Below are positions 2,127 through 31,661 of a DNA stretch of 32,670 nt, piece after piece. The stretch's first letter is position 1. Each line of letters opens with the position of its first letter. Origin of the DNA: a virus; the UHGV virus genome UHGV-0203498. One strand, written 5' to 3'. Under the pieces are notes generated by a model. It had not been told where the DNA came from. It did no database searches and saw only the letters and a program-made list of their open reading frames with translations. Both the position numbers and the translations under genes were made by a program.

Positions 2127-2289
2127 CTTATGCAGTCTCAGACGAGGGGGGTGCCAGACCCCCCGTCTAGTCTGAAAGACTGGGGTGCTGTCCCGCTGTC
2201 CCGATCGGCTGAAACCCGCGGCAGCACTGCGGGGGACGGGGTGCTGTCCCGCTTTGTCCCGCCCCTGGTCTGTCCCGCTTTTTGTCCCG
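2127..2289. repeat. Copy A of a ~163-bp structured repeat element (imperfect long palindrome followed by a GTCCCGC heptamer array)
   Basis: 2128-2203 is identical to 18923-18999 and 2233-2289 is identical to 19027-19083; a ~29-nt variable segment separates the two identical arms. Contains the near-palindrome CAGTCTCAGACGAGGGGGGTGCCAGACCCCCCGTCTAGTCTGAAAGACTG. Confidence 0.85.
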
Positions 2290-2447
2290 TTTGTTTTATG
2301 TAGTAAAACTGAATAGGTATGCACTTTTTCAGGGGGTGCCGTAGCGGGACGTCCCGCTTGTCCCGCTTTTAGTTTATGCAATAAAAGTAAATAGGTATGC
2401 AGTTTTCGAGGGGCGGGACAAAACGGGACGTCCCGCTTGTCCCGCTT
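2290..2447. repeat. Two tandem ~79-bp units (TTTATGCAATAAAA...AGGGGG...GGGACGTCCCGCTTGTCCCGC)
   Basis: Units begin at 2295 and 2374 with TTTATG(C/T)A(A/G)TAAAA and end with GGGACGTCCCGCTTGTCCCGC. Perfect 10-bp palindromes GGGACGTCCC lie at 2346-2355 and 2425-2434. Confidence 0.8.
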
Positions 2448-3921: not shown

Positions 3922-4036
3922 AATATCCTCCTAAATCAATAGATTACAGTATTTGCAACCTGAGACATTTCAGGTCTTGACTAATCATACCACCAACGGT
4001 ATTATCCACCAAAATCGTTAACCAACCGGAGCGGCT

Positions 4037-4630
4037 ATGCGTAAAGGCATTCTTTTTGAAGGCATGACATTTAGAGGCGTTACTTTGTTGCGTAAAGGGC
4101 CAGGCCTTAAGTGGTTCTGTTCTTGCCCCATATGCGGCAACGAGACACTTCGCACTAACGGCGCGCTATTGGATTTCATGAGAGGCGACACACTGCGTTG
4201 GGTATGTACTTGTTTTGGTAAGAAATCGCGGCACGGTATGACCGGAACTCCAACAATGCTGTCATGGCAAGGCATGATCCAGCGATGCCACAACCCCAAT
4301 GCAGCTAAATACGAAATATATGGCGGTCGAGGGATTACGGTGTGCGACCGCTGGCGAGTATTCAAGAACTTCCTGGAGGATATGGGGCCGCGTCCCAAGG
4401 GCACTACGTTAGACCGTATTGATCAGAATGGTAATTACGAAAAAAGCAACTGCCGTTGGGCTTCGCAAGCTACGCAAAACGATAATACAAGGCGCATTAT
4501 ACATGTTCGTTTTAATGGCGAGGTGTACAACTTAAAATCGGCTTGCAAAGCCGCGGGGGTTAATTACGACACCGTGCGCAAGAAATGGAAAAAAAGCGGT
4601 GAGATGTTCCACCGCTTCGAGATAGTCTAG
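4037..4630 (+). CDS. HNH-type homing endonuclease-like protein with N-terminal Cys cluster
   Basis: Opposite strand to the flanking tail genes. Cys cluster CSCPICGN...CTC, and a C-terminal region YEIYGGRGITVCDRW...TLDRIDQNGNYEKSNCRWASQATQNDN that resembles phage HNH endonuclease signatures. GGAG 7 nt before the ATG. Confidence 0.5.
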   Translation: MRKGILFEGMTFRGVTLLRKGPGLKWFCSCPICGNETLRTNGALLDFMRGDTLRWVCTCFGKKSRHGMTGTPTMLSWQGMIQRCHNPNAAKYEIYGGRGITVCDRWRVFKNFLEDMGPRPKGTTLDRIDQNGNYEKSNCRWASQATQNDNTRRIIHVRFNGEVYNLKSACKAAGVNYDTVRKKWKKSGEMFHRFEIV

Positions 4631-6657: not shown

Positions 6658-7752
6658 TTAGGACGCGGTGGTCGCAGTCAGAGTAACCAGTACGCCAGCC
6701 GTTTCTTTGATGTGTCGGGTCGGCACTGCCTGCGCGGCCTGGGTCTTACGACGGCCTTTAGTGTCGCTATCGCCGCCAACGTCCTGAACGGTTGCCGGTG
6801 CGTTGTCTACCTGGCCCTGGTCCAGTTCCCAGTTTGCGGAAGTGGTAATATCGCTCAGTTTGAACGAGCGCACACCTTCGATCGGGGTGCGGGCGGACGC
6901 CTTCAGACGGTAGCCTTTAACAGCCACGTTGAAGTCGAACTCACCCTGCCACCAACGTTCGATGTTCTCGTTACCGCCTTTTTCCTGCGCCAGCATATCA
7001 AGGCCGTTGGTGGTAACTGCAACCGCGCCAGGGACCAGACCCAGCATGTTACCAGTACCCATCGCATCGGCAGCGGCATCGGAGATAATGAAACGACGGC
7101 CCAGGCCATCACCCATTACCTGCAGATCGCCGATTGCGAATACCTGCTCTGCAGACGGGAGCGCCTGGTATGCAATGAAGTTTGCCCAGGTAACGCCGTC
7201 CATAAACCAGGATTTAATCAAAGACGCCTGATCGCCGAACTTAGAAGCCGCCAGCGGGAAGTCTGCCAGGGTAGGGAAGGTACGACCGCCCACACCATCA
7301 ACGCGCTCCGGTTGGGTGTATTTTGCCGCTGCGTTGCTCTCGATCGCCGCTTTACTTGCGCCGATACCGGCCTTCAGGTAATGCAGCATAATCGCTTGAG
7401 TAGCCTGTGCCGCAATCTCAGCCGCAACGCTGTTAACGTTGGTTTCGATCTTAGCCATCATAGCCTTAGTGATTGCAACCGGACCCACTTTCGCGGAGAG
7501 GTTGACCGAGTTGGTCAGCATACGCGCCAGCACTTTAGCGGTCGCCGGAGTACCGACAGGGGCATATGCGTTACGGTCGGTAACGAGGTTGGCGATCAAG
7601 CCTACGGACATTTTCTCTACAACGTCCTTCAGCACTTCACCTGTACCGAGAACAACAGCGCCGTTAGCGGCAGCGTTGAACACGTTCAGGTTGTCGGGGA
7701 TCATTTGCGTAACCGCGGTAACGAGTTTACGCTGGAACACTGTTAAAGACAT
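6658..7752 (-). CDS. Major capsid protein
   Basis: 364-aa ORF directly downstream of the scaffold gene, AAGGA RBS, followed by a strong intrinsic terminator. Size and composition fit a phage major capsid protein. Confidence 0.7.
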   Translation of the reverse strand: MSLTVFQRKLVTAVTQMIPDNLNVFNAAANGAVVLGTGEVLKDVVEKMSVGLIANLVTDRNAYAPVGTPATAKVLARMLTNSVNLSAKVGPVAITKAMMAKIETNVNSVAAEIAAQATQAIMLHYLKAGIGASKAAIESNAAAKYTQPERVDGVGGRTFPTLADFPLAASKFGDQASLIKSWFMDGVTWANFIAYQALPSAEQVFAIGDLQVMGDGLGRRFIISDAAADAMGTGNMLGLVPGAVAVTTNGLDMLAQEKGGNENIERWWQGEFDFNVAVKGYRLKASARTPIEGVRSFKLSDITTSANWELDQGQVDNAPATVQDVGGDSDTKGRRKTQAAQAVPTRHIKETAGVLVTLTATTAS

Positions 7753-7823
7753 ATCGAAATCCTTTGAGTTGTGAGCATACGCCCAGTGACGTTAATGTTA
7801 CCTTAGATTTACGCGCTCGCAAA

Positions 7824-7845
7824 ATCGCCCGCTTTCGCGGGCGAT
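7824..7845 (-). terminator. Weak hairpin between scaffold and capsid genes (possible partial terminator)
   Basis: 9-bp stem ATCGCCCGC / GCGGGCGAT with loop TTTC, followed on the minus strand by only four U residues. Confidence 0.3.
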
Positions 7846-7849
7846 CTGC

Positions 7850-8554
7850 TTACTCGTCGTCGCCCATTTTAGCGATGATATCACCTGCCTGTTTCGTCAG
7901 GTCCGTGATGCCAAAGCTATGGCCCATCGAGATTTTCGGCTTCGCATCTTCAATAACCTGTGTCGGTTTGCTCGGAGCGCCACCTGCTGGCGTGCCAGCC
8001 AGGACGGATGCAAAATCGGCGTTATTACGGAACTCTTTTTCAAGCTCTTCCATAGTAAGGGCGGACGGTTTGCCATCCTGCAATACCCGCACTTTCAAGC
8101 TGCCGTCTTCGCCGTCTTCCAGCGCGAGGCGGTCCATTACGTGGCGTTGCATGATGCCGGCGTTCTTGCCGAACAGCTTCGACGCCAGGTCTTTGGCAGC
8201 GCTGCCGATGGTTAGATCGTGGATCTGCTTGCGGTAGGCTTCGATTTTACCCGATGTGTCTGCTTCGTATTTTGCAAACTTATCCTTCCAGGATTTATCG
8301 ATCGCTTCAAGGTCGCCATTTTTGCGCGCGGCGGCTTCCTCTTTCTCTTTCGCAAGGCGCTCAGCTTCGGCGCGGCGTTCAGCTTCTGCTTTCTTCTCGC
8401 TCACCAGCTTCGCATTGTTGTCTTTCAGACCCTTAATTTCCGCCTGCACTTCGTCAGCGGTCATAAATGTTGACTTATACCCATCGCCATCGGCAACAAA
8501 AAGCGCCTTCATACCTTCCGGCAACGCGTCGTATTCTGCTTTGGTAAGTTTCAT
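7850..8554 (-). CDS. Scaffolding protein
   Basis: Start MKLTKAEYD at 8554 preceded by AGGGGGA. K/E/A-rich, coiled-coil-like composition (AEAERRAEAERLAKEKEEAAARK). Lies immediately upstream of the capsid gene. Confidence 0.6.
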   Translation of the reverse strand: MKLTKAEYDALPEGMKALFVADGDGYKSTFMTADEVQAEIKGLKDNNAKLVSEKKAEAERRAEAERLAKEKEEAAARKNGDLEAIDKSWKDKFAKYEADTSGKIEAYRKQIHDLTIGSAAKDLASKLFGKNAGIMQRHVMDRLALEDGEDGSLKVRVLQDGKPSALTMEELEKEFRNNADFASVLAGTPAGGAPSKPTQVIEDAKPKISMGHSFGITDLTKQAGDIIAKMGDDE

Positions 8555-8644
8555 GCTATCCCCCTGGGATTGTGGCAGAGCGGGCCACCCGCTCGACTTC
8601 ACGCTTCTAATATTATCAGTGGTAAAAATAATCGCAAAATTCGC

Positions 8645-8674
8645 TTGCAATCTGGGTGTTGGTTGCACTATATT
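8645..8674 (+). promoter_or_regulatory. Putative sigma70-like promoter for the DnaN-like moron (TTGCAA-N18-TATATT), overlapping TTGGTTGCAC motifs
   Basis: TTGCAA at 8645-8650 and TATATT at 8669-8674; TTGGTTGCAC copies at 8659-8668 and 8673-8682; palindrome TTGGT-N5-ACCAA at 8673-8687 just before the RBS. Confidence 0.4.
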
Positions 8675-8703
8675 GGTTGCACACCAACAACGAGGAAATG
8701 AAA

Positions 8704-9216
8704 ATGATTAGAGTTAACTATGCCGACCTTAAGGCTGCTACGATGTGCGCCGCTACTAATGACGTCCGATACTACCTAAATGGTGTATTTTTCGACGAGA
8801 AAGGATTCATCGTGTCGACCGACGGCCACCGTTTGTTCTGCGGGTCCGCGGTTGTTCCAGAAGGTGAAAGTAAAATAGTATCAATTAAAGGCCGCTTACC
8901 TACTAAATTCGAATACTGCAACATCGACGGCACCTCCGCAGCGTTCTTCGATAGTAAAGACGTATTAATAGATACCATACCCTGCGAGATTGTAGACGGA
9001 CGCTTTCCAGACTGGAGAAGAGTTACGTCTTTCGTCAGCAATACCGTGGAGGCTATTGGGTTTAACGGGGCATACCTGGCCGACGCCTGCAAAATTGCTA
9101 AATTGTTCGACCGTAAGTTTGAGGGCTTAAAACTGGAATTCCAGGGTGTAGACAAAGCAACACGCGTGCTGTACAAAGGAGGTGCCTTCTTAGTTATCAT
9201 GCCGATGCGTTTGTAG
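8704..9216 (+). CDS. Truncated DNA polymerase III beta sliding-clamp (DnaN) homolog, 170 aa
   Basis: Translation carries DnaN signatures in order: DVRYYLNGVFF, STDGHRLF, VDGRFPDWRRV, IGFNGAYLADA and C-terminal FLVIMPMRL (E. coli DnaN: DVRYYLNGMLF, ATDGHRLAV, VDGRFPDYRRV, IGFNVSYVLDV, YVVMPMRL). ATG at 8704 is 7 nt after GAGGA. Alone on the plus strand among minus-strand head genes. Confidence 0.75.
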   Translation: MIRVNYADLKAATMCAATNDVRYYLNGVFFDEKGFIVSTDGHRLFCGSAVVPEGESKIVSIKGRLPTKFEYCNIDGTSAAFFDSKDVLIDTIPCEIVDGRFPDWRRVTSFVSNTVEAIGFNGAYLADACKIAKLFDRKFEGLKLEFQGVDKATRVLYKGGAFLVIMPMRL

Positions 9217-9221
9217 TTACC

Positions 9222-9255
9222 AAAAAGGGGGCCATTACAGCCCCCGAATTATTTT
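9222..9255. terminator. Bidirectional intrinsic terminator between the DnaN-like gene and the o-spanin gene
   Basis: Stem GGGGGC (9227-9232) / GCCCCC (9240-9245) with loop CATTACA. Flanked by A5 upstream (U5 on the minus strand) and GAATTATTTT downstream. Confidence 0.55.
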
Positions 9256-9465
9256 CTGCAACTCCAGCACTTGCGCCCTTAGCATAGCCCCGCATTCCAT
9301 ATTTTTAACATCAACCAGCAAGTCTTCGTCTGGGTCTGCCGAGGCATTCTCAAAAGTGCAAGGCGGTCTATAGACCGACTCGGTTAGCGGCGTCAATGGC
9401 ACGTTGCTTGATCCGCACGCGCTCAGCATCAAAACTGCAATCAGTACGGTCAGGACGCGTAACAT
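9235..9465 (-). CDS. Putative o-spanin (outer-membrane lipoprotein, Rz1-like)
   Basis: Signal peptide with lipobox LSAC-GSS; small Pro-containing mature region with Cys residues. AAGAGG RBS. Its start lies inside the 3' end of the upstream membrane-protein gene in another frame (overlapped spanin architecture). Confidence 0.5.
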   Translation of the reverse strand: MLRVLTVLIAVLMLSACGSSNVPLTPLTESVYRPPCTFENASADPDEDLLVDVKNMECGAMLRAQVLELQKIIRGL

Positions 9466-9679
9466 ATTTTACAACCTCTTTCGTGATAGTCCGGTATTCC
9501 ACATCGCGGGCCTGTTCGGCCTGCACTGCCCCCTCGACAACCTTAGTTTGCTGCCGTTGGGCTTTCGCTTGCGCCGCTTTCTCCTCTTTCACCACAACGC
9601 CAGCGCGGTAGGAGTCACCCAGCCAGAAGCCAACTGCCAGGCCGATAATTAATCCAATCGCTGCGTATTTAATCACGCC
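9368..9679 (-). CDS. Putative i-spanin (Rz-like; N-terminal transmembrane segment plus charged helical periplasmic region)
   Basis: GTG start at 9679 gives MIKYAAIGLIIGLAVGFWLG (TM segment) followed by KEEKAAQAKAQRQQTKVVEGAVQAEQ. The o-spanin candidate is embedded in and extends beyond its 3' end. Start codon is uncertain (TTG at 9706 is also possible). Confidence 0.45.
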   Translation of the reverse strand, partial: GVIKYAAIGLIIGLAVGFWLGDSYRAGVVVKEEKAAQAKAQRQQTKVVEGAVQAEQARDVEYRTITKEVVKYVTRPDRTDCSFDAERVRIKQRAIDAANRVGL

Positions 9680-10772
9680 ATAACCCCCGGTTTTTAAGCT
9701 GTGCAATAGTCATTAACTCACCCGCATCGGTGAACATTTTCGGCACTTTCACGCCGCGCATAATCTGGTCAGCGCGCTGCACCCCGTATAACTCCTCCAG
9801 AATATGGCGCGGCTGGCGCTGCACCCATGAGAAGAAATCAGTCTGCGCGTCTACATGTTCACTCAGCAACCGACCCGCGTCAGCCTTCAGTGCCGGACGC
9901 TTACCACTGGGCCAGTCTTCCATGCCCTTAACTTTCCACGTCTCCGTCGAACGGCAGCAATAATGCAGCTTACCCGGACCAGCGCCATACTGCGATCCAG
10001 CCACCACTTTTCCGCCGCGCTTTCCTTTGGTCTCGGGAGTGACGTCCACAGGATAAAACAGGCGATCGCGTAGCTGGCACATAGGGGAGGTATGAGTGTC
10101 CAATGTAGCCAACCATTGGCGACCTTCGAGAATATCGTCATTTGCTTTCACCATTAATTCGCGGGCGGTCGCCGCATAGTGGTTGACTGCGGACTTAACC
10201 ACGCTTGAGATGGCCTGCGCACTACGACCGCCGAGCGCGCGCCTTACGTCCGCAATTATTTCCATAGTCGGCTTGCCCTGGATGAATCCAGCGCGCACCT
10301 GATTCCCGATCTGCGTCCTGGTCCACTCAGAGAGTGAGTCAGGCCATTGCATCATCGTATTACCCTGAAACGGGTTTTTCATAGCCGTCGCTGCGATCTG
10401 CGCGCCGGTTACTACGCTCACTACCTCAACAGCTGGAACGGCAACCGCTGGCTGGATCGCTGCCGTTAATGTGTTGGCGAGATAATCAGCCTCCGTGTCG
10501 GCGAACTCCTGAAGGCTTTCTGCCAGCGCCTTAAACTCGGTGCGCAGTTCTGTCTTAACGGTCTTGTCGAGTTGCGTCAACAGTGTGGTAAGCGCCTTGT
10601 TATTCATGGACTTTTTGCCATCAAGCAACTCGGTCAGCTTCCCCAGTAGCGTGGGCCGGAACTTCTCCCACATAGCCAGCACCCTTCGCGCCTGGTCATT
10701 GCTCAGGCGCTGGGTGAAAATGTGACGGCGGATCATGCGATCCGCCAGATGTTGATTAATCGTTCTCGCCAT
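9669..10772 (-). CDS. Head morphogenesis protein (Mu F / SPP1 gp7-like minor head protein)
   Basis: 367-aa ORF immediately downstream of the portal gene and overlapping it by 17 nt. Region WLATLDTHTSPMCQLRDRLFYP resembles the Mu F-family conserved core. Confidence 0.6.
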   Translation of the reverse strand: MARTINQHLADRMIRRHIFTQRLSNDQARRVLAMWEKFRPTLLGKLTELLDGKKSMNNKALTTLLTQLDKTVKTELRTEFKALAESLQEFADTEADYLANTLTAAIQPAVAVPAVEVVSVVTGAQIAATAMKNPFQGNTMMQWPDSLSEWTRTQIGNQVRAGFIQGKPTMEIIADVRRALGGRSAQAISSVVKSAVNHYAATARELMVKANDDILEGRQWLATLDTHTSPMCQLRDRLFYPVDVTPETKGKRGGKVVAGSQYGAGPGKLHYCCRSTETWKVKGMEDWPSGKRPALKADAGRLLSEHVDAQTDFFSWVQRQPRHILEELYGVQRADQIMRGVKVPKMFTDAGELMTIAQLKNRGLWRD

Positions 10773-12276
10773 TGTCCGCTACCTTGTCCGGGTCTTCTTC
10801 GGTAGATTCTACCGCATCAGGTGACATTTGAGGCAATGGATTCTGATTTCGCAATTCGTCTTCCACCTGCTCGACGGTTTGCGAGTCGTCGATGACGCCC
10901 TGCGCCATCATCCACTTGATGAAATCAGCCAGGCGGACCGTACCAGTCTGCACACCCGACATCATCGCTGTCATAAGCTGCGCATCAACCGTGATTTCGG
11001 TGTAGAACTTGTTCAGCGTCACTCGCTGGTCCGCGGTGTCTCCAGTGAATAGCTGGACAATTTGCAGCGCACGGTTGAAAGCCTTCTCAACGTTACCGGC
11101 AATAAGTGACAGGATACTGTTATCAGTCTGCGCGTCGTAGGCCGCTTCTGTTGCCGTCTTAGGTGCAGTCCCCTTCTCAACCAGGGCCGCGCCAAGTTTA
11201 GCCATTTGCAACTCGCGGCGCTCGCACAACGCTACCGACAAGTTGCGCTCCTCGGCCTGGAGCAGTTTAGCGTCCATGTTCTGGCCCAGGATAACGCCCT
11301 TAGTTGCACCGAGAGCAATGCCACCCTTCAGGTTTTTGTCCGCCCATGATTGCGTCAGGCCCGTGGTGACAAGGGTCGGCTGGCCCACAATGTGCGCGAT
11401 CTCGGCAACGTCCGCTTCGGCGTTGTAGTGCTTAATATTGATAGACGCAATATCCGCCAGCGGCGCGGCGTCAGGCGATGCGTTGTTGTCCACCGCGCCA
11501 CACCAGCAAAATGGCAGTTGAGTAAGCGCGTTACCGGCTGCGTCCACCAACGGTACAAGGTCGGTTCGGGTGAAGCCACGCGGCAGGTCCATTTGCACCT
11601 CGGACGTGTCAGCGTTGTAAAACCAGCGGCGGGCGTGTGCCTTGCCGTCAATCATGCGAAGCTCGGTCCAGATGGTTACTTCGTGGTTTGCGAAGTCGTC
11701 CGGGTCTTCGGTGCTGATTTCGTCCGTTTCCTTCAGCACGATTAGCGTATCGACCCCGTGGGTCTGCCGCCAGTTGATGATCTGTTCTGCCGTATACAGG
11801 CGGATAAGCGGGCGGTGCGCAGCCATCTCGGCGGCGGTCTGCGGCACTACGTTACCCAGTTCGTCAAAGTTGGCCTGGTGGTCGTAGTCCACCATAAAGC
11901 CAGCGCGGCCAGATTGCAGCACTTCCGACATAGCACCGCGCAGGAGTTGCGGCAACGGCATACCGCTGCCGTCTACGTCATCAATCAGGTCAGCCATCGC
12001 CCCGGAAAGGTCCAGACTTACCGGTTTTGCAAAGGCAACGCCCAACAGCGCGTTAAGTGTGCGAGCGGTGGCGTTCAGGAATACAGCGCGTTGCTTATAC
12101 GCCTTATACCGCGCCCGTGATTTCGGGTCAGTATTGTCGCCGCTGGCGGGATGTGGCAGATACAAAGGGCCGCACGCCTTCACGGCGCGCTCCCCTGCTA
12201 CACAATCCCGGATCATTTTCCACTCTGGCGCGATGCGCGCATAAAGCGGGTGCTGGTTGTCAACGTTAACGGTCAT
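10756..12276 (-). CDS. Portal protein
   Basis: 506-aa ORF directly downstream of the large terminase gene; AAGGAA RBS; acidic C-terminus. Size and position fit a portal. Confidence 0.65.
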   Translation of the reverse strand: MTVNVDNQHPLYARIAPEWKMIRDCVAGERAVKACGPLYLPHPASGDNTDPKSRARYKAYKQRAVFLNATARTLNALLGVAFAKPVSLDLSGAMADLIDDVDGSGMPLPQLLRGAMSEVLQSGRAGFMVDYDHQANFDELGNVVPQTAAEMAAHRPLIRLYTAEQIINWRQTHGVDTLIVLKETDEISTEDPDDFANHEVTIWTELRMIDGKAHARRWFYNADTSEVQMDLPRGFTRTDLVPLVDAAGNALTQLPFCWCGAVDNNASPDAAPLADIASINIKHYNAEADVAEIAHIVGQPTLVTTGLTQSWADKNLKGGIALGATKGVILGQNMDAKLLQAEERNLSVALCERRELQMAKLGAALVEKGTAPKTATEAAYDAQTDNSILSLIAGNVEKAFNRALQIVQLFTGDTADQRVTLNKFYTEITVDAQLMTAMMSGVQTGTVRLADFIKWMMAQGVIDDSQTVEQVEDELRNQNPLPQMSPDAVESTEEDPDKVADNGEND

Positions 12277-14353: not shown

Positions 14354-15496
14354 TTACTTCAACATTTCCGGGCTAATGGTTAAGCGCGCTACTTCGCCGT
14401 AATTGGCGCTGTAGGTGATGACGTTGGCACTACGACCGGACATCCAACCGCCGCGGCTTGCATATGCGTCTTTCGCGGCGAGCGTCCGGTGCTGCTCAAC
14501 AATCATGTTACGGGATTCTACAATCTTCTGGTGGTGCAAGTGACCGACATGCGCGTAACTGTACTCGCTTTCGCCAAATGCTTTTCTGAACTTAGCAATC
14601 ATAACCGTCTCGATTGCATCAAAGCGTGCTTTGTGTCCGTGGTGGAAAAACAGCGTGGTTTTACCGTGCCGCACCATCTTGTATACGTCCGGGGACGTGT
14701 CAACATCGACGCGCGGCTCGTTCTCATACAGGGTATTGAACATCTCCGCAAGCCAAATCATACCAGACTCGTCATGGTTGCCCTGGACAATTAGCAGTTT
14801 GACTTTGTGGTGCTTTTGCAGCGCCAGATCAACCACGTTGCGCACCATGCGAATCATGTAGCGCACCAACTTCTGGTATCGGGTGTCCGCGTCCAGAATG
14901 TGACCACTTGCCGGAGTGACGGCATCGAGGCTGTCAAAGTGCGCCATATCCCCGAGGATATTGATTACGGCAGTTCCTGCGTCTGGTGCGCGGGCGAATG
15001 CTTCGACAAACCAGCGGTAGAACAGATCTTCGGCGATTGCCATATCCCAGTCTTCGCCAGTCTCCTCGCCCCATGCCAGCATTCCCAGGTGGAAGTCTGA
15101 CACTGTGTACAGGTTGAGTAGGTCAAGTGCCTGGATCGGGACTGGCGGGGCGCTAACTGGTGCTGCCGGTGTGATTTCGCTGTTCATACCCTCGACAACA
15201 GCGCGCATTGCTTCGAGTTGGCGCTCCTTGTCCTGCTCGGTGATAACCCATGACATGACCTCCTCGCCATTGCCACGCACCAGGGCGGAGACACGCTTGA
15301 CGCCGAATCCATCGGCAACGCGCTTACGGATCACAGCATCGTTGCCGTGTCCAATACCTTTCTTCGACAGTCTGGCTTTGCGCATGTAGACATTCCGAAG
15401 AGCAATGCCGTATTTCTTCGCAATCTCTTTCGATGTAGTGCCAGCTTGCAATTCAGCGATTAATTGCTCGTCGGTAATTTTAGTTTGCGGGTGCAT
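14354..15496 (-). CDS. Helix-turn-helix domain fused to a calcineurin-like metallophosphoesterase (SbcD/Mre11-like motif set)
   Basis: N-terminal HTH-like ITDEQLIAELQAGTTSKEIAKKYGIALRNVYMRKARL. Metallophosphoesterase motifs SDFHLG, GDMAHFD, VQGNHDE, FHHGH and GHLHH. Confidence 0.7.
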   Translation of the reverse strand: MHPQTKITDEQLIAELQAGTTSKEIAKKYGIALRNVYMRKARLSKKGIGHGNDAVIRKRVADGFGVKRVSALVRGNGEEVMSWVITEQDKERQLEAMRAVVEGMNSEITPAAPVSAPPVPIQALDLLNLYTVSDFHLGMLAWGEETGEDWDMAIAEDLFYRWFVEAFARAPDAGTAVINILGDMAHFDSLDAVTPASGHILDADTRYQKLVRYMIRMVRNVVDLALQKHHKVKLLIVQGNHDESGMIWLAEMFNTLYENEPRVDVDTSPDVYKMVRHGKTTLFFHHGHKARFDAIETVMIAKFRKAFGESEYSYAHVGHLHHQKIVESRNMIVEQHRTLAAKDAYASRGGWMSGRSANVITYSANYGEVARLTISPEMLK

Positions 15497-15649: not shown

Positions 15650-15685
15650 TTGGTTGCAGTATGGTCTCTATGTTGGTTGCAAGTC
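15650..15685 (+). promoter_or_regulatory. ATTGGTTGCA motif pair
   Basis: GATTGGTTGCAG and TGTTGGTTGCAA lie 24 bp apart, immediately beside the 15691-15716 hairpin. Confidence 0.45.
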
Positions 15686-17936: not shown

Positions 17937-18202
17937 TTGCTCAGTCTCCAGTGTTTGCCTACCCGCTCGACTGCGGGCTTTCGGCGTAATGTAATACGGA
18001 TCCCCATTGGTTGCAAGGAAGTCCGCACCCTGAAATCGTGCTTTGCTGCGAACTGGTGCAAGTAGCGAGTCTGCGTAAGCGGCTTCACATCATCGCGATA
18101 GCTCCAGTACACAGAATCGCCCTCAGTCGCATTCTTAGCCCATATTCGTATGCAGTGTAGGGGAATGCGCCATGAAAGCTGTTTAGCGCGCCTACGGCTC
18201 AT
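17933..18202 (-). CDS. Hypothetical protein
   Basis: 89-aa basic protein; ATG at 18202 preceded by AAGGGG at 6-nt spacing. Confidence 0.4.
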   Translation of the reverse strand: MSRRRAKQLSWRIPLHCIRIWAKNATEGDSVYWSYRDDVKPLTQTRYLHQFAAKHDFRVRTSLQPMGIRITLRRKPAVERVGKHWRLSK

Positions 18203-18211
18203 TCTAGCCCC

Positions 18212-18517
18212 TTATTTCGCAAGCTGAGCGAATAGTTCGCGCTGTGCTTTAATCCGGGCGACGTTTGTCACCGCCTTATCGCCAATACCGAAGCGATATG
18301 CCAGGCGCTCACGGGAGAATGCCTTCGCGTAGCCCTGGATGGCGTTCAGCAGCGAGGCCAGTTTGGCAATCGTGACACCCCTGGCAACGAGTGCACGACG
18401 GAGTGATAGGCGCGTCAGTATCACGGACCGGCACGCATCGTCTTCGTTGCCGTTCAGTGCTCTGGCCTCGTCCAGCTTCGCCACGGCCAGGGTGTAATTC
18501 CAGATTAGTGCTCGCAT
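18212..18517 (-). CDS. Hypothetical protein
   Basis: 101-aa ORF in the same-strand operon. Confidence 0.45.
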   Translation of the reverse strand: MRALIWNYTLAVAKLDEARALNGNEDDACRSVILTRLSLRRALVARGVTIAKLASLLNAIQGYAKAFSRERLAYRFGIGDKAVTNVARIKAQRELFAQLAK

Positions 18518-18711
18518 CGTTCGGTCCTCTTCGTGATGGTTACGCTGTCCAGGAACTGGAAAAGCGCCTCTTGTGCCTTGACGCGCATTGCTTCGTATCG
18601 GCGCTCTTTCTTAAAGTTGCCGAGTAGGTGTGCGGCTCGCGCTTGCAGGTCAGCATTGTTCTCCGCCTCAATCAGTTCTAACAGTTCGTCGACCAGGTCT
18701 TCGTGTTCCAT
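18505..18711 (-). CDS. Hypothetical acidic protein; first gene of the operon
   Basis: ATG at 18711 preceded by AGGAGGA and by the TTGGT-N5-ACCAA palindrome. The upstream region carries a TTGCAG-N16-TTATAT promoter-like arrangement overlapping two ATTGGTTGCA motifs. Confidence 0.45.
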   Translation of the reverse strand: MEHEDLVDELLELIEAENNADLQARAAHLLGNFKKERRYEAMRVKAQEALFQFLDSVTITKRTERCEH

Positions 18712-18732
18712 CGTTCAGTCCTCCTGTTGGTG

Positions 18733-18776
18733 TGCAACCAATATAACAGGGTGCCAGGGTGACTGCAACCAATATT
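18733..18776 (-). promoter_or_regulatory. ATTGGTTGCA motif pair with overlapping promoter-like hexamers upstream of gene 18711
   Basis: On the minus strand: ATATTGGTTGCAGTCACCCTGGCACCCTGTTATATTGGTTGCACACCAACAGGAGG. Confidence 0.45.
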
Positions 18777-18921
18777 AATCACGCGCATGAAAAAGTTGAT
18801 CGCTATCTGCTGAAACTGCAAACTGCATTTTTCACTCTCCATTCTGCAACTCGCATTGGTTGCCGAGTTCATCGACGACCGCAATTTGCATCATGTTGCC
18901 GTGCGTTATGCAATCCCGGAT

Positions 18922-19083
18922 TTTATGCAGTCTCAGACGAGGGGGGTGCCAGACCCCCCGTCTAGTCTGAAAGACTGGGGTGCTGTCCCGCTGTCCCGCT
19001 CCTCTGGAAGCCGCGTCATCCGTGGGCGGGACGGGGTGCTGTCCCGCTTTGTCCCGCCCCTGGTCTGTCCCGCTTTTTGTCCC
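18922..19083. repeat. Copy B of the ~163-bp structured repeat element
   Basis: 18923-18999 is identical to 2128-2203 and 19027-19083 is identical to 2233-2289, in the same orientation, 16.8 kb from copy A. Confidence 0.85.
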
Positions 19084-19132
19084 GCTTACTTTATGCAATA
19101 AAAATGCATAATTATTCACTATATTCACACTA

Positions 19133-19216
19133 CACGGCAACCAATACGACCAGCTAAAAACACGCAATCTGGCAACCAATGCGCGCAGAAATTAACCAAC
19201 ATGGCAACCAATGCGC
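19133..19216 (-). promoter_or_regulatory. Three ATTGGTTGCC motif copies, including an exact 17-bp direct repeat
   Basis: Plus-strand GGCAACCAATGCGCGCA occurs at 19172-19188 and 19200-19216; a third GGCAACCAAT is at 19133-19142. Located downstream of the primase gene stop. Confidence 0.5.
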
Positions 19217-19223
19217 GCAAATT

Positions 19224-21498: not shown

Positions 21499-21828
21499 TT
21501 ACTTAGAAGTTTTATTATTGCGTACCCAGGAGCGCACTGTGCTCTGATTAATTCCGGTCAACTCGGCAATCATCGCCCATGACTTACCTTCGTCGCGCAA
21601 ACGGATAACCTGCTTTTTGTATTCTTCCATTTCTTCATTGTGTTTTTGCAGCTTGCTTGCTGCCGTGCCATTGAGCAATTCAAGCCTGGCGCGTAATTCT
21701 TTTTCGACACTGCGCAGGCGCTCGATTTCAAATAACACCGCACCAACGGCGTCGGTATAAGCCCAGGACCGGCTTGTTTCACCGCTAACAGTTTTCGTTA
21801 ACATTTCGATTGCGTCGTTTACATTCAT
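21499..21828 (-). CDS. Putative DNA-binding regulator (coiled-coil N-terminus, C-terminal helix-turn-helix)
   Basis: C-terminal KSWAMIAELTGINQSTVRSWVRNN is HTH-like. First gene of the primase operon, preceded by GAGGGAAG RBS and the palindrome GTTGGT-N5-ACCAAC (21842-21858). Confidence 0.5.
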   Translation of the reverse strand: MNVNDAIEMLTKTVSGETSRSWAYTDAVGAVLFEIERLRSVEKELRARLELLNGTAASKLQKHNEEMEEYKKQVIRLRDEGKSWAMIAELTGINQSTVRSWVRNNKTSK

Positions 21829-21859
21829 TGCTCTTCCCTCAGTTGGTTAATGACCAACG

Positions 21860-21889
21860 AAACTACACCCAAAACCGCACGGTGTCAAA
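21860..21889 (-). promoter_or_regulatory. Putative sigma70-like promoter for the minus-strand primase operon
   Basis: Minus-strand TTGACA (plus 21884-21889), ~18-nt spacer, TAGTTT (plus 21860-21865). The -10 is weak. Confidence 0.3.
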
Positions 21890-21979
21890 TACTTTGGTTA
21901 TTGAAACGGGCGCGCACGCGTGTAATAATAATTCCGTCTCATTGTCTCTTATTGGTTAGCGCCGTCGCATTTTGCCTTG

Positions 21980-22033
21980 GCGCTTTTTTTTTGAAATTAG
22001 TTGTTGACACCCCACATGCAACCAATCTAATAT
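21980..22033 (+). promoter_or_regulatory. Putative strong sigma70 promoter with upstream T-tract (UP-like element) for the plus-strand early operon
   Basis: TTGACA at 22004-22009, 18-nt spacer, TAATAT at 22028-22033; T9 tract at 21984-21992; the spacer contains GCAACCAAT. Confidence 0.5.
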
Positions 22034-22229
22034 TCACTCCGTCGACAGGATGCAGGACGCAAACTGGAGAGGGGCAACGCAGGGGCCGGATCGAAGTGTC
22101 AGGATTCCCAACCGTGATTATATAACCAGGTCCACTACCCGAACGGGAGAACGCGTAACCTGGCAATATGTTAAGGCCACCGACGAAGTTAACTGCCGAC
22201 ACCTAAACTTAACCAATCGGAGATATACC

Positions 22230-24678: not shown

Positions 24679-24913
24679 AGTATTCGCAGTCTTATTGATG
24701 TTTTTGCTAGGCGCGCTGGGATTTATCTTGCATTGCGTGCAAGGCGTGTTAATGGTGGCCTGGATGATTCGCCATCCAACCCAATGGCTGGACAATGGGT
24801 ATAGCGAAGCTGCCGTCGACTGGGTGGAGAAGAACATTGACCGCCCGCCGTTAAGCTGGATCGAGAACGCCACCAACTACGTGACACGAAATCTTTTTAA
24901 TGAAAATGCTTGA
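24671..24913 (+). CDS. Hypothetical small membrane protein
   Basis: N-terminal hydrophobic segments VFAVLLMFLLGALGFILH and VLMVAWMI; overlaps the upstream gene by 8 nt. Confidence 0.4.
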   Translation: MNKVFAVLLMFLLGALGFILHCVQGVLMVAWMIRHPTQWLDNGYSEAAVDWVEKNIDRPPLSWIENATNYVTRNLFNENA

Positions 24914-24923
24914 CCGCTCAGAC

Positions 24924-24950
24924 GCAACCAAGTAGATTAGCAACCAAGCC
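24924..24950 (-). promoter_or_regulatory. TTGGTTGC motif pair (variant) upstream of the SSB gene
   Basis: Plus-strand GCAACCAAG at 24926-24934 and again 16 bp later. Confidence 0.35.
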
Positions 24951-28649: not shown

Positions 28650-28924
28650 CCCCAGAAGGCAAGATTCAAAGCTACCTGATGCGTCGGGTGAAAGCGGTGG
28701 GTGGATTCTGCCGCAAAGTGGCCTGGGAGGGGCGCGCAGGTGCGCCCGACCTGATTATCATCATCAACGGCATCATTGTATTCGTCGAAGTGAAGCGCCC
28801 AGGGGGAAAACCGAAGCCGCACCAGGTGCGAGAGCATGCGCGGATGGCCCGCCGCGGTGCTGACGTTCGCGTCATTGACAACATAGCCGACTGTGATTTA
28901 TTGGTTGCTGAATTGGTCGCATAG
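28646..28924 (+). CDS. VRR-NUC domain nuclease
   Basis: GAPDLIII...VFVEVKRPGGKPKPHQ matches the PD-(D/E)xK core of VRR-NUC domains; start coupled to the upstream stop (ATGA). Confidence 0.8.
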   Translation: MTPEGKIQSYLMRRVKAVGGFCRKVAWEGRAGAPDLIIIINGIIVFVEVKRPGGKPKPHQVREHARMARRGADVRVIDNIADCDLLVAELVA

Positions 28925-28953
28925 CGGTATAGTGTGCCGGTTAGGAGGATTTT

Positions 28954-31627: not shown

Positions 31628-31661
31628 ATTGGTTGCATAATCATATTGGTTGCATTATATT
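31628..31661 (+). promoter_or_regulatory. ATTGGTTGCAT motif pair forming a sigma70-like promoter (TTGCAT-N17-TATATT)
   Basis: Motifs at 31628-31638 and 31645-31655; -35 at 31633-31638 and -10 at 31656-31661. Confidence 0.45.

What the first reader, a model, noticed from the sequence alone, without database searches (positions are those of the whole stretch)
8673..8687. Palindrome (G)TTGGT-N5-ACCAA(C) in the leader of three operon-first genes
The same small inverted repeat sits 10-20 nt before the RBS of the DnaN-like gene (8673-8687), of gene 18711 (TTGGTTGCACACCAACAGGAGG on the minus strand) and of the HTH gene at 21828 (GTTGGTCATTAACCAAC, 21842-21858). Two of the three share the identical TGCAC loop. 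As DNA it is a classic dimeric operator; as RNA it would form a 5-6 bp hairpin next to the Shine-Dalgarno sequence.
Basis: seen in the sequence. Interest (0 to 1): 0.55.

Follow-up and report, generated by a model that had tools for sequence, protein, structure and literature searches.

The report
Phage operator motif inside early promoters
The small palindrome is real, but it is the two-sided form of a 9-base motif (ATTGGTTGCA) that sits inside about ten promoters of this virulent coliphage, most likely as the DNA binding site of a phage-encoded regulator rather than an RNA hairpin.

Summary
The window is a Dhillonvirus (HK578/SO-1/EP23-like virulent coliphage). TTGGT-N5-ACCAA occurs exactly three times, at the stated places (0.04 expected). 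No other spacing from N0 to N15 occurs. It is conserved in most relatives.

The 9-10-mer ATTGGTTGC(A) occurs 17 times (about 1.6 expected). Fifteen of the 17 copies lie in the 12% of the window that is intergenic. Each of 8 complete relatives has 17-23 copies, and divergent relatives have it too. A syntenic Hafnia phage without the candidate regulator lacks it.

Every cluster lies inside a predicted sigma-70-type promoter, over the -35, the spacer or the -10/+1. The three palindromes span -8..+7 (two cases) and -4..+11, so the predicted transcription starts fall inside them. As RNA the hairpin is weak (-3 kcal/mol, z -0.5), lies outside the Shine-Dalgarno sequence and shows no compensatory changes.

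Best reading: these are DNA operators of a phage regulator. The best candidate is gp50 (21499-21828, minus strand), a predicted long helix plus C-terminal helix-turn-helix. The three palindromes probably act as repressing or autoregulatory sites.

This is an undescribed member of a familiar kind of system. No binding or transcript data exist.

The parts
8673..8687 (+). Palindrome A, TTGGTTGCACACCAA. It spans -8..+7 of predicted promoter P_A, upstream of the DnaN-like gene. Its left part is a full 9-mer, TTGGTTGCA.
8659..8667 (+). Second 9-mer TTGGTTGCA, in the spacer of P_A just upstream of the -10.
8645..8674 (+). Predicted sigma-70-type promoter P_A: TTGCAA, 18 nt, TATATT. Predicted start about 8681. 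Both hexamers are invariant in 8 genomes, while the spacer stretch 8651-8658 varies.
18727..18741 (-). Palindrome B, same 15-mer as A. It spans -8..+7 of predicted promoter P_B, upstream of the 68-aa ORF 18505-18711.
18740..18772 (-). P_B: 9-mer TTGGTTGCA (18772-18764) whose TTGCAG serves as the -35, a 17-nt variable spacer, and -10 TATATT (18745-18740). Predicted start about 18733.
21843..21857 (-). Palindrome H, TTGGTCATTAACCAA on the gene strand. It spans -4..+11 of predicted P_gp50 and is the probable autoregulatory operator.
21860..21888 (-). Predicted P_gp50: TTGACA (21888-21883), 17 nt, TAGTTT (21865-21860). Predicted start about 21853.
21499..21828 (-). gp50, 109 aa. Variable N-terminus, predicted long helix 23-79 and an invariant C-terminal helix-turn-helix. 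Best candidate for the protein that binds the motif.
15650..15681 (+). Two 9-mers (15650-15658, 15673-15681), reversed relative to the minus-strand gene hyp63. They lie at about -6 and -29 of predicted promoter TTGACT-18-CATACT (15687-15658).
19137..19211 (-). Three direct copies of (GCGCGC)ATTGGTTGCC just downstream of the helicase-primase gene. The last one overlaps a predicted -35 (TTGCCG-18-AATAAT). Copy number is 2-3 among relatives.
18856..18863 (+). Isolated 8-mer TTGGTTGC in the same intergenic region.
22004..22033 (+). Predicted rightward early promoter TTGACA-18-TAATAT, with a reversed 9-mer TGCAACCAA (22017-22025) in the spacer next to the -10.
24910..24947 (+). Predicted promoter of the SSB gene, TTGACC-17-TAGATT, flanked by two reversed 8-mers GCAACCAA (24924-24931 and 24940-24947).
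28901..28933 (+). Predicted promoter upstream of hyp39/helicase: TTGGTTGCT (its TTGCTG serves as the -35), TTGGTCGCA in the spacer, and -10 TATAGT.
31629..31661 (+). Predicted promoter after the HNH gene: TTGGTTGCA (its TTGCAT serves as the -35), a second TTGGTTGCA in the spacer, and -10 TATATT.
18007..18014 (+). Copy of the 8-mer inside the coding sequence of hyp54. Conserved in relatives; significance unknown.

Best explanation
The palindrome is a DNA element, not an RNA one. It is the two-sided version of an operator whose unit is the asymmetric 9-10-mer ATTGGTTGC(A).

This unit is embedded, singly or in pairs and in either orientation, in about ten sigma-70-type promoters of the phage's early, replication and accessory genes. 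It covers the -35, the spacer next to the -10, or the -10/+1.

A phage-encoded DNA-binding protein reads it. The best candidate is gp50, the first gene of the gp50/helicase-primase operon. It is a 109-aa protein with a long, probably dimerising helix and an invariant C-terminal helix-turn-helix.

At the three palindromes two half-sites, TTGGT and ACCAA, lie one helical turn apart across the transcription start. A dimer bound there would occlude RNA polymerase. It would repress the DnaN-like gene and the orf68 operon, and would autoregulate gp50.

Shown: the motif, its enrichment, its conservation, its position relative to promoter-like hexamers, and its co-distribution with gp50.

Inferred: that the hexamers are real promoters, where transcription starts, that gp50 is the binder, and that the effect is repression.

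The confidence of 0.6 is for 'protein-bound DNA operator in promoters'. That gp50 is the binder I put at about 0.4, and that the net effect at the palindromes is repression at about 0.5.
For: Occurrence and enrichment:
- The palindrome occurs 3 times against 0.04 expected, and only at spacing N5.
- TTGGTTGC occurs 17 times against 1.56 expected. It is among the top over-represented 8/9-mers in the window, TheodorHerzl, SO-1 and HK578.
- 15 of 17 copies lie in the 12% of the window that is intergenic (binomial p = 2e-12).
- Seven fetched complete Dhillonvirus genomes have 17-23 copies each and HK578 has 19.
- Relatives whose gp50 is only about 60-67% identical over near full length have 11-13 copies per 13-20 kb, at the same kinds of place.

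Position in promoters:
- Each motif-bearing intergenic region holds a sigma-70-like hexamer pair with the motif at -39/-40, -27/-29, -21/-22 or -5/-8.
- The palindromes span -8..+7 (A and B) and -4..+11 (H).

Phylogenetic footprints:
- Motif, -35 and -10 are invariant. The spacers between them vary in sequence and keep their length, apart from a 1-nt deletion at site A in LM40P1.
- 136 of 157 motif positions are invariant against 665 of 915 other intergenic positions (Fisher p = 1.4e-4).
- In gp50 leaders of two clades, ACCAA sits exactly 12 nt after the -10 and 13-14 nt before the ATG, although the surrounding sequence differs.

gp50 as the binder:
- Pfam hits to HTH_23, Sigma70_r4_2 and HTH_28.
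- Residues 47-106 are nearly invariant while the N-terminus varies.
- The AlphaFold2 model has pLDDT 88, with a helix at 23-79 followed by an HTH.
- Among 30 window proteins, only gp50 and a Dcm methylase are found in all motif-bearing divergent loci and absent from Hafnia phage TS33. TS33 has a syntenic replication module, a Cro-like gene in gp50's place and only 1 copy of the motif.
- The other weak HTH candidate, hyp63, is missing from divergent loci that keep the motif.
Against: - There are no transcription-start, binding or expression data for any Dhillonvirus in the searchable literature. Promoters and starts are consensus predictions, and several -35 hexamers are weak (3/6).
- Most sites are single asymmetric 9-mers with variable pair spacing (9-35 bp) and both orientations. 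That is unusual for a simple symmetric dimer.
- HK578 has a divergent gp50 (48% identity over the HTH region, 142 aa) and lacks palindrome H. It still keeps 19 copies of the motif and palindromes A and B. So either the HTH specificity is retained or gp50 is not the binder.
- The co-distribution argument rests on few genomes, and the divergent loci cover only 13-20 kb.
- Forward copies whose TTGCAN serves as the -35 hexamer could mean activation or a promoter-recognition role rather than repression.
Confidence: 0.6

Rival explanations
1. The 9-mer is a promoter-recognition element rather than a repressor site. A phage factor, for example gp50 with its sigma-region-4-like HTH, or a Mor/C- or MotA-like activator, binds forward copies centred on -35. 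There it substitutes for poor -35 recognition and switches on middle genes. Copies at -22/-8 and the palindromes would give a second, negative or timing input.
For: - In five or six promoters the TTGCAN inside a forward 9-mer lies 16-18 bp upstream of a good -10. These are P_B, P_hyp39, P_hyp33, region B, and TheodorHerzl hyp26 and hyp29. L008 shows the same.
- Reversed copies occur only in promoters that have their own TTGAC-type -35.
- gp50 scores above the Pfam cut-off for Sigma70_r4_2.
Against: - A site centred at -35 would compete with sigma region 4 unless sigma is remodelled, and no AsiA-like partner is known here.
- The same motif also covers the -10/+1 and the spacer, where binding should block polymerase.
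- There is no sequence match to the Mor family or to MotA.
- The -39 position is partly a consequence of choosing TTGCAN as the -35 hexamer.
Confidence: 0.17
2. The motif belongs to replication control. A phage initiator or helicase-loader, gp50 or a domain of the helicase-primase, binds DnaA-box-like 9-mers. The triple repeat next to the iteron- and AT-rich region is part of an origin, and the promoter copies couple transcription to replication.
For: - Three direct copies lie right after the helicase-primase gene. An AT-rich stretch and six GCGGGACA iterons follow.
- The SO-1 record annotates this region as a repeat region.
- gp50 is co-transcribed with the helicase-primase.
- An asymmetric 9-mer in varied orientation and spacing is the grammar of DnaA boxes (my own knowledge).
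Against: - Most copies are far from that region and lie inside promoters.
- In L008 the iterons are replaced by GGTGCCA-type repeats while TTGGTTGC stays. The iteron binder and the 9-mer binder therefore differ.
- The second iteron region (2189-2438) has no TTGGTTGC.
Confidence: 0.1
3. The palindrome acts in the mRNA. A 5-bp hairpin next to the Shine-Dalgarno sequence would modulate translation or stability.
For: - All three copies end 1-4 nt before a Shine-Dalgarno sequence.
- The arms are intact in most relatives, and two contigs vary only in the loop.
Against: - The predicted -10 hexamers overlap or abut the left arm, so the predicted 5' ends fall in the loop or left arm. At site A the divergent 143-bp intergenic region leaves no room for a better upstream promoter.
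- The minimum free energy is -3 kcal/mol with z about -0.5. In the gp50 leader the palindrome is not part of the predicted fold.
- The Shine-Dalgarno sequence is not sequestered.
- One-sided changes occur without compensation: G->A in Envy and EP23, T->C in LM40P1, and the left arm is lost in L008 and L150 while ACCAA stays.
- There is no Rfam match.
Confidence: 0.04
4. A host regulator binds the sites, for example a GntR/FadR-family protein such as PdhR. The PdhR box AATTGGTnnnACCAATT has the same half-sites.
For: - The half-site ATTGGT/ACCAA(T) is identical to the PdhR box (PMC7660256).
- 13 of 17 copies have A before TTGGT.
Against: - The spacing is N5, not N3, and no N3 pair exists in the window.
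- Most copies are non-palindromic and need TGC, which is not part of the PdhR box.
- The motif tracks a phage clade, not the host. It is absent from TS33, which infects Hafnia, another enterobacterium.
Confidence: 0.04
5. There is no regulatory protein. The similarity reflects duplicated promoter cassettes and a preferred -35-like sequence (TTGGTT/TTGCAN) kept by selection for promoter strength alone.
For: - Sites A and B share 21 identical nt that include the -10.
- The motif contains two overlapping TTGNNN hexamers.
Against: - Copies in the spacer, at +1 and in reverse orientation cannot serve as the -35, yet they are invariant.
- ACCAA downstream of the start is conserved at a fixed distance across clades that share no other leader sequence.
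Confidence: 0.05

Closest known systems
Classic phage operator/repressor pairs: dimeric helix-turn-helix proteins on inverted repeats overlapping a promoter (lambda Cro/CI, P22 c2/Cro)
   Same: - Inverted half-sites one helical turn apart.
- Placed over the -10/+1.
- One copy lies in front of the candidate regulator's own gene.
- Several promoters are controlled by one site type.
   Different: - This is a virulent phage with no lysogeny module in the window.
- Most sites are single asymmetric 9-mers in variable arrangement, not 17-bp dyads.
- The candidate protein is a long helix plus a C-terminal HTH of the LuxR/sigma-4/resolvase type, not a Cro/CI fold.
Mycobacteriophage L5 gp71 repressor and its 'stoperators' (Brown et al. 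1997, as cited in PMC11447400; details from my own knowledge)
   Same: A short asymmetric site for a phage HTH protein, repeated some 20-30 times in intergenic regions of the phage genome, including an early promoter.
   Different: - Stoperators have one orientation relative to transcription and act on elongation between genes. Here the sites occur in both orientations and inside promoters.
- L5 is temperate.
- The sequences are unrelated.
21-nt direct repeats aaATAGCACnnnTTGnTAAAA of phage TLS, T1 and Rtp (PMC11447400)
   Same: A genus-specific short repeat found about 20 times, mostly intergenic and upstream of genes, in a virulent coliphage that uses host RNA polymerase. Its function and binder are unknown.
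   Different: - Different sequence and length.
- The TLS repeats are all co-oriented with transcription and lie about 76 nt upstream of start codons.
- The Dhillonvirus 9-mers lie inside the core promoter and include palindromic versions.
Phage Mu Mor and C activators (PDB 1rr7, 9l0x) and their promoter sites
   Same: - They act at promoters with poor -35 hexamers.
   Different: - No sequence or Pfam relationship.
- Mor/C sites are dyads centred near -43.5 (my own knowledge), whereas these palindromes cover the start site.
E. coli PdhR box AATTGGTnnnACCAATT (PMC7660256)
   Same: Identical half-site sequence, ATTGGT / ACCAAT-like.
   Different: - The spacer is 5 nt, not 3.
- Most phage copies are half-sites extended by TGCA.
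- The distribution follows the phage clade.

Membership tests
Dimeric HTH operator overlapping a core promoter | Inverted repeat with a single fixed spacing, half-site centres about one helical turn apart | tested here: met
   Three copies, all N5. None occurs at N0-4 or N6-15 in either arrangement.
Dimeric HTH operator overlapping a core promoter | Overlaps the -35, -10 or +1 of a promoter | tested here: met
   Met on predicted promoters only. The palindromes span -8..+7 (A, B) and -4..+11 (H). Hexamers and spacer length are conserved. No experimental start sites exist.
Dimeric HTH operator overlapping a core promoter | The half-site sequence itself is conserved, while flanks vary | tested here: met
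   Invariant in 8-9 genomes at sites A and B. Loop variants with intact arms occur in 2 contigs.
Dimeric HTH operator overlapping a core promoter | A cognate protein binds the site and changes transcription | not testable with these tools
   Only circumstantial: gp50's fold, conservation and co-distribution with the motif.
cis-acting mRNA leader hairpin | Both arms are present in the transcript | tested here: inconclusive
   The predicted starts (8681, 18733, 21853) lie inside the palindromes, which argues against. No 5'-end data are available.
cis-acting mRNA leader hairpin | The structure is more stable than chance and involves the ribosome binding site | tested here: not met
   Energy is -3 kcal/mol, z -0.5. 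It is not in the predicted fold of the gp50 leader. The Shine-Dalgarno sequence lies outside the stem.
cis-acting mRNA leader hairpin | Pairing is kept through compensatory changes | tested here: not met
   Only one-sided changes are seen: G->A in Envy and EP23, T->C in LM40P1. The left arm is absent in L008 and L150 while ACCAA is kept.
L5-type stoperators | Asymmetric site repeated many times in intergenic DNA of the phage | tested here: met
   17-23 copies per genome; 15 of 17 intergenic in the window.
L5-type stoperators | Single orientation relative to transcription, acting downstream of promoters | tested here: not met
   Both orientations occur. All clusters lie inside predicted core promoters.
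Mu Mor/C activator system | The protein belongs to the Mor family by sequence | tested here: not met
   [not shown]
Mu Mor/C activator system | Dyad site upstream of or overlapping the -35 of a promoter without a -35 | tested here: not met
   The palindromes lie at the start site. Only single forward 9-mers overlap the -35.
PdhR box (GntR/FadR family operator) | AATTGGT-N3-ACCAATT | tested here: not met
   The half-sites match but the spacer is N5, and no N3 pair exists in the window.

The most novel reading that the evidence does not exclude
One 9-mer, read in an orientation- and position-dependent way by a small sigma-region-4-like / Mor-like protein (gp50), would run the whole early-to-middle switch of a virulent siphophage that has no RNA polymerase of its own.

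Forward copies that replace the -35 hexamer would recruit polymerase to middle promoters. Reversed or palindromic copies over the spacer, -10 and +1 would shut off the TTGAC-type early promoters, including gp50's own.

The same sites upstream of the DnaN-like gene sit at about -60 and -74 of the divergent promoter of the scaffold/capsid operon. They might therefore also feed into late expression.
Probability: 0.15. Interest if true: 0.7.

Novelty: new member of a known kind. Interest (0 to 1): 0.45.

Why it matters
Dhillonviruses are among the commonest virulent coliphages in collections such as BASEL, and more than 150 genomes are available. I found nothing on how they time gene expression.

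A single conserved motif that marks about ten promoters, together with a named candidate regulator, gives a directly testable map of the early regulon. It also explains why unrelated 'moron' genes downstream of site A keep the same leader.

The motif and gp50 also offer compact, portable promoter/operator parts and a handle for engineering these phages.

Conceptually it is a familiar arrangement, a phage regulator and its operators, so it does not overturn anything.

Tried and rejected
- Literature searches for the motif, Dhillonvirus or HK578 promoters and transcriptomics found nothing relevant.
- An exact scan of IMG/VR for the 15-mer gave over 120 scattered hits, as expected by chance for 15 bases in that volume. 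It was uninformative.
- Rfam gave no family at gathering score, and only a chance-level hit in the divergent region.
- Foldseek against PDB gave no significant whole-protein match for gp50, only HTH-level superpositions. A profile search of PDB sequences gave one short HTH hit to an entry named 'CAP REPEAT', plus coiled-coil noise.
- The search for related loci with the gp50 alignment returned only close relatives, so no distant gp50 with a changed motif could be examined.
- HK578 was examined as a natural experiment because its gp50 is divergent. It is ambiguous: the motif is kept, the gp50-leader palindrome is lost, and the recognition-helix residues ST.R.W are kept.
- A sigma-54 promoter reading (TGGCAC-N5-TTGCA) and NtrC-type sites were considered by eye and rejected because the GG/GC spacing does not fit.
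- hyp63 (weak GerE-like HTH plus metallophosphoesterase) was considered as the binder. It was set aside because divergent motif-bearing loci lack it.
- A first automated conservation run was distorted by indels and a one-sequence alignment. It was redone with narrower regions.

Full report
**What the window is.** Megablast of 7000-12000 finds 159 phage records. Nearly all are Escherichia or Shigella Dhillonvirus (HK578, SO-1, EP23, BASEL phages) at 90-95% identity. Mapping the annotated proteins of phage TheodorHerzl onto the window gives the gene order:
- tail and head genes on the minus strand;
- a lone plus-strand DnaN-like gene (8698-9216);
- portal and terminase genes, hyp63, the lysis cassette and small genes, all on the minus strand;
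- a 512-bp intergenic region (18712-19223);
- helicase-primase (19224-21488) and the small HTH gene gp50 (21499-21828), both on the minus strand;
- a divergent control region (21829-22229);
- the plus-strand replication genes.

TTGGT-N5-ACCAA occurs at 8673, 18727 and 21843 and nowhere else. Shuffles give 0.04 expected. No TTGGT/ACCAA inverted pair exists at any other spacing from 0 to 15. Each copy ends 1-4 nt before the Shine-Dalgarno sequence of the first gene of a transcription unit. The copies are kept at the same three loci in 6 of 7 fetched genomes. LM40P1 has one base changed in the third copy. They are also kept in most of 15 further IMG/VR contigs.

**The larger pattern.** The two copies with the 'identical TGCAC loop' share 21 identical bases, TATATTGGTTGCACACCAACA. 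Each has a second TTGGTTGCA 14 or 31 bp upstream.
- TTGGTTGC occurs 17 times in the window against 1.56 expected.
- It is among the most over-represented 8/9-mers in the window, TheodorHerzl, SO-1 and HK578.
- The consensus is A(13/17)-TTGGTTGC-A(10/17).
- Fifteen of 17 copies lie in the 12% of the window that is intergenic (p = 2e-12).
- They form nine clusters: 8659/8673; 15650/15673; 18734/18765; 18856; 19137/19172/19204; 22018; 24924/24940; 28901 (plus TTGGTCGCA at 28913); 31629/31646.
- The left arm plus 'loop' of palindromes A and B is simply one copy of this 9-mer.
- Each complete relative has 17-23 copies.
- No copies lie in front of the structural operons. The one exception is the divergent region at site A.

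**Position relative to promoters.** The scan tool finds TTGCAA-18-TATATT at 8645-8674, TTGACA-18-TAATAT at 22004-22033 and TTGCCG-18-AATAAT at 19140-19111. A slightly more permissive scan gives one plausible sigma-70-type hexamer pair, oriented toward the downstream gene, in every motif-bearing region. Taking +1 as 7 nt after the -10, the positions are:
- Palindromes A and B span -8..+7. Palindrome H spans -4..+11.
- Other copies start at -39/-40, where their TTGCAN is the -35 hexamer. This holds for P_B, P_hyp39, P_hyp33 and region B, and for hyp26 and hyp29 in TheodorHerzl.
- The remaining copies start at -27/-29, at -21/-22 (spacer next to the -10) or at -5/-6.
- Reversed copies occur only in promoters with their own TTGAC-type -35 (P_R, P_SSB, P_hyp63). 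Forward copies occur in TTGCA-type promoters.

These are predictions, but alignments support them. Motif, -35 and -10 are invariant. The spacer between them varies in sequence and keeps its length, apart from a 1-nt deletion at site A in LM40P1. Over eight regions, 136 of 157 motif positions are invariant against 665 of 915 other intergenic positions (p = 1.4e-4).

At site A the downstream gene differs among phages: a DnaN-like gene, a 254-aa protein or small ORFs. The promoter and operator block is the same in all.

**DNA or RNA.** On the predicted promoters the transcripts begin inside the palindromes, giving leaders of about 17, 22 and 25 nt. The hairpin could then not form. At site A the 143-bp divergent intergenic region offers only weaker alternatives upstream.

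Even if transcribed, the hairpin is -3 kcal/mol and no better than shuffled sequence (z about -0.5). In the gp50 leader it is not part of the predicted fold. It never includes the Shine-Dalgarno sequence.

Natural variation is one-sided. The sixth pair is lost in Envy and EP23. TTGGT is CTGGT in LM40P1 with no compensating change. In a divergent clade (L008, L150) the left arm is absent while xGCAACCAA is kept. That site lies exactly 12 nt after the -10 and 13-14 nt before the ATG, as in the window. This is sequence-specific conservation at a fixed promoter position, as expected for protein recognition of DNA. There is no Rfam family here.

**Who binds.** Among early-region proteins, only gp50 has a clear DNA-binding domain: HTH_23, Sigma70_r4_2 and HTH_28, all above the Pfam cut-offs. 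PHROG labels it 'transposase', and records call it 'resolvase' or 'transposase'.
- Its homologues are confined to Dhillonvirus-like phages.
- Residues 47-106 are almost invariant while the first 45 residues vary.
- The AlphaFold2 model (pLDDT 88) is a short helix, one long helix (23-79) with a heptad pattern of L/I/V/M, and a C-terminal HTH. I read the heptad pattern as a likely coiled-coil dimer; that is an inference.
- The HTH superposes on LuxR/GerE, sigma region 4, IS21 and resolvase DNA-binding domains.

The co-distribution also points to gp50.
- Three divergent relatives (gp50 59-67% identical over near full length, or 82% over the conserved C-terminal part) keep 11-13 copies per 13-20 kb at equivalent places.
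- Hafnia phage TS33 has a syntenic replication module (helicase-primase 44% identical) and a Cro-like gene where gp50 would be. It has 1 copy and no palindrome.
- In a presence/absence table of 30 window proteins, only gp50 and a Dcm methylase are found in all the motif-bearing divergent loci and absent from TS33. hyp63, which has a weak GerE-like HTH, is missing from divergent loci that keep the motif.

The evidence is circumstantial. HK578 is a caution. Its gp50 is 142 aa and only 48% identical over the HTH region, and the gp50-leader palindrome is replaced together with the gene. Yet the other sites remain. The recognition helix keeps ST.R.W, so unchanged specificity is plausible but unproven.

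**Mechanism proposed.** A phage regulator, probably a gp50 dimer, binds ATTGGTTGC(A). At the three palindromes both subunits find a TTGGT half-site one turn apart across the start site. These should be the tightest sites. They should repress P_A and P_B and autoregulate P_gp50. Copies in spacers and at -5/-8 should also occlude polymerase.

The class where the motif supplies a weak -35 hexamer could instead be activated. This is the main rival, with Mor/C and MotA as functional analogies. A replication role for the triple repeat next to the iteron region cannot be excluded. However, the iterons (GCGGGACA) change to another repeat in L008 while the 9-mer stays.

Host PdhR shares the half-site but needs N3 spacing.

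**Comparison with known systems and novelty.** The arrangement works like classic phage operators. In its dispersed asymmetric copies it recalls the L5 repressor with its stoperators and the uncharacterised 21-nt repeats of TLS/T1. It fails defining features of each:
- stoperators: orientation and position (inside promoters) do not fit;
- the Mor family: no sequence relationship;
- the PdhR box: wrong spacing.

I found no description of this motif or of Dhillonvirus transcription control in the searchable literature. The SO-1 GenBank record only flags 'repeat regions A and B'. I therefore rate it a new member of a known kind, of moderate interest. It is a clean, testable regulon in a much-used phage genus, without a new principle unless the dual activator/repressor reading proves true.

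Noticed in passing
window 2189-2438 and 18984-19078: Two clusters of 6-7 copies of (A)GCGGGACA iterons, 18 copies in the window against 1.1 expected. They lie next to AT-rich DNA and overlap small ORFs annotated in relatives (hyp18, hyp52). They match SO-1 'repeat regions A and B' and are likely replication origin(s). In the divergent relative L008 the equivalent region carries GGTGCCA-type repeats instead.
   Followed up: partly
window, dispersed (e.g. 398, 3845, 8099, 9550, 10459, 11965, 12787, 16364, 19887, 21659): The 8-mers ACGGCAGC and ACGGCAAC are about 10-fold over-represented (18 and 19 copies against 2.2 and 1.5 expected). They lie mostly inside genes, and ACGGCAGC is largely co-oriented with the minus-strand genes. 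The same 8-mers are over-represented in HK578, SO-1, TheodorHerzl and the distant Hafnia phage TS33. Unexplained; possibly a polar Chi-like or primase-type signal, or a codon effect.
   Followed up: partly
window 21901-21998 (+): A good promoter (TTGAAA-17-AATAAT with an upstream TG, 21901-21929) is followed after about 25 nt by a strong terminator-like hairpin with a T-run (about 21958-21998). This suggests a transcript of about 60 nt, either a small RNA or an attenuated leader, in the divergent control region. No Rfam match.
   Followed up: partly
window 22040-22229, especially 22066-22117: The roughly 190-nt stretch between promoter 22004 and the hyp48 start is more conserved than most coding DNA among Dhillonviruses. 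A 52-nt core is 92-94% identical to unannotated DNA in unrelated T1-like phages (slyngel, tunus, swan01) and 88% identical in Enterobacter phage Arya. An in-frame ATG at 22050 could extend hyp48, so this could be a coding extension or a structured leader.
   Followed up: no
window 3922-4629 (ORF 4037-4630, +): A 708-bp insertion between the major tail and tail terminator genes, absent from TheodorHerzl. It carries an opposite-strand 197-aa ORF with its own promoter-like site (TTGACT-17-TATTAT, 3977-4005). The only domain hit is a weak DUF3797. It looks like a moron of unknown function and has no TTGGTTGC nearby.
   Followed up: partly
window 8555-8697 (-): A weak minus-strand promoter (TTGCGA-16-TAATAT, predicted start about 8603) points to the scaffold/capsid operon. 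It places the two 9-mers of site A at about -60 and -74 of that late promoter. The same sites might therefore act on both divergent promoters.
   Followed up: no
L014 (HK578) 35500-36003: In HK578, gp50 and the downstream half of its promoter and leader are replaced as one cassette by a 142-aa homologue that is only 48% identical over the HTH region. The mosaic joint lies just after the -35 TTGACA.
   Followed up: partly
window 14354-15496 (-): hyp63 combines a weak N-terminal GerE/LuxR-like HTH with a calcineurin-like metallophosphoesterase domain. Records annotate it variously as a regulator, phosphoesterase or DNA repair exonuclease. Its promoter carries two copies of the 9-mer.
   Followed up: partly
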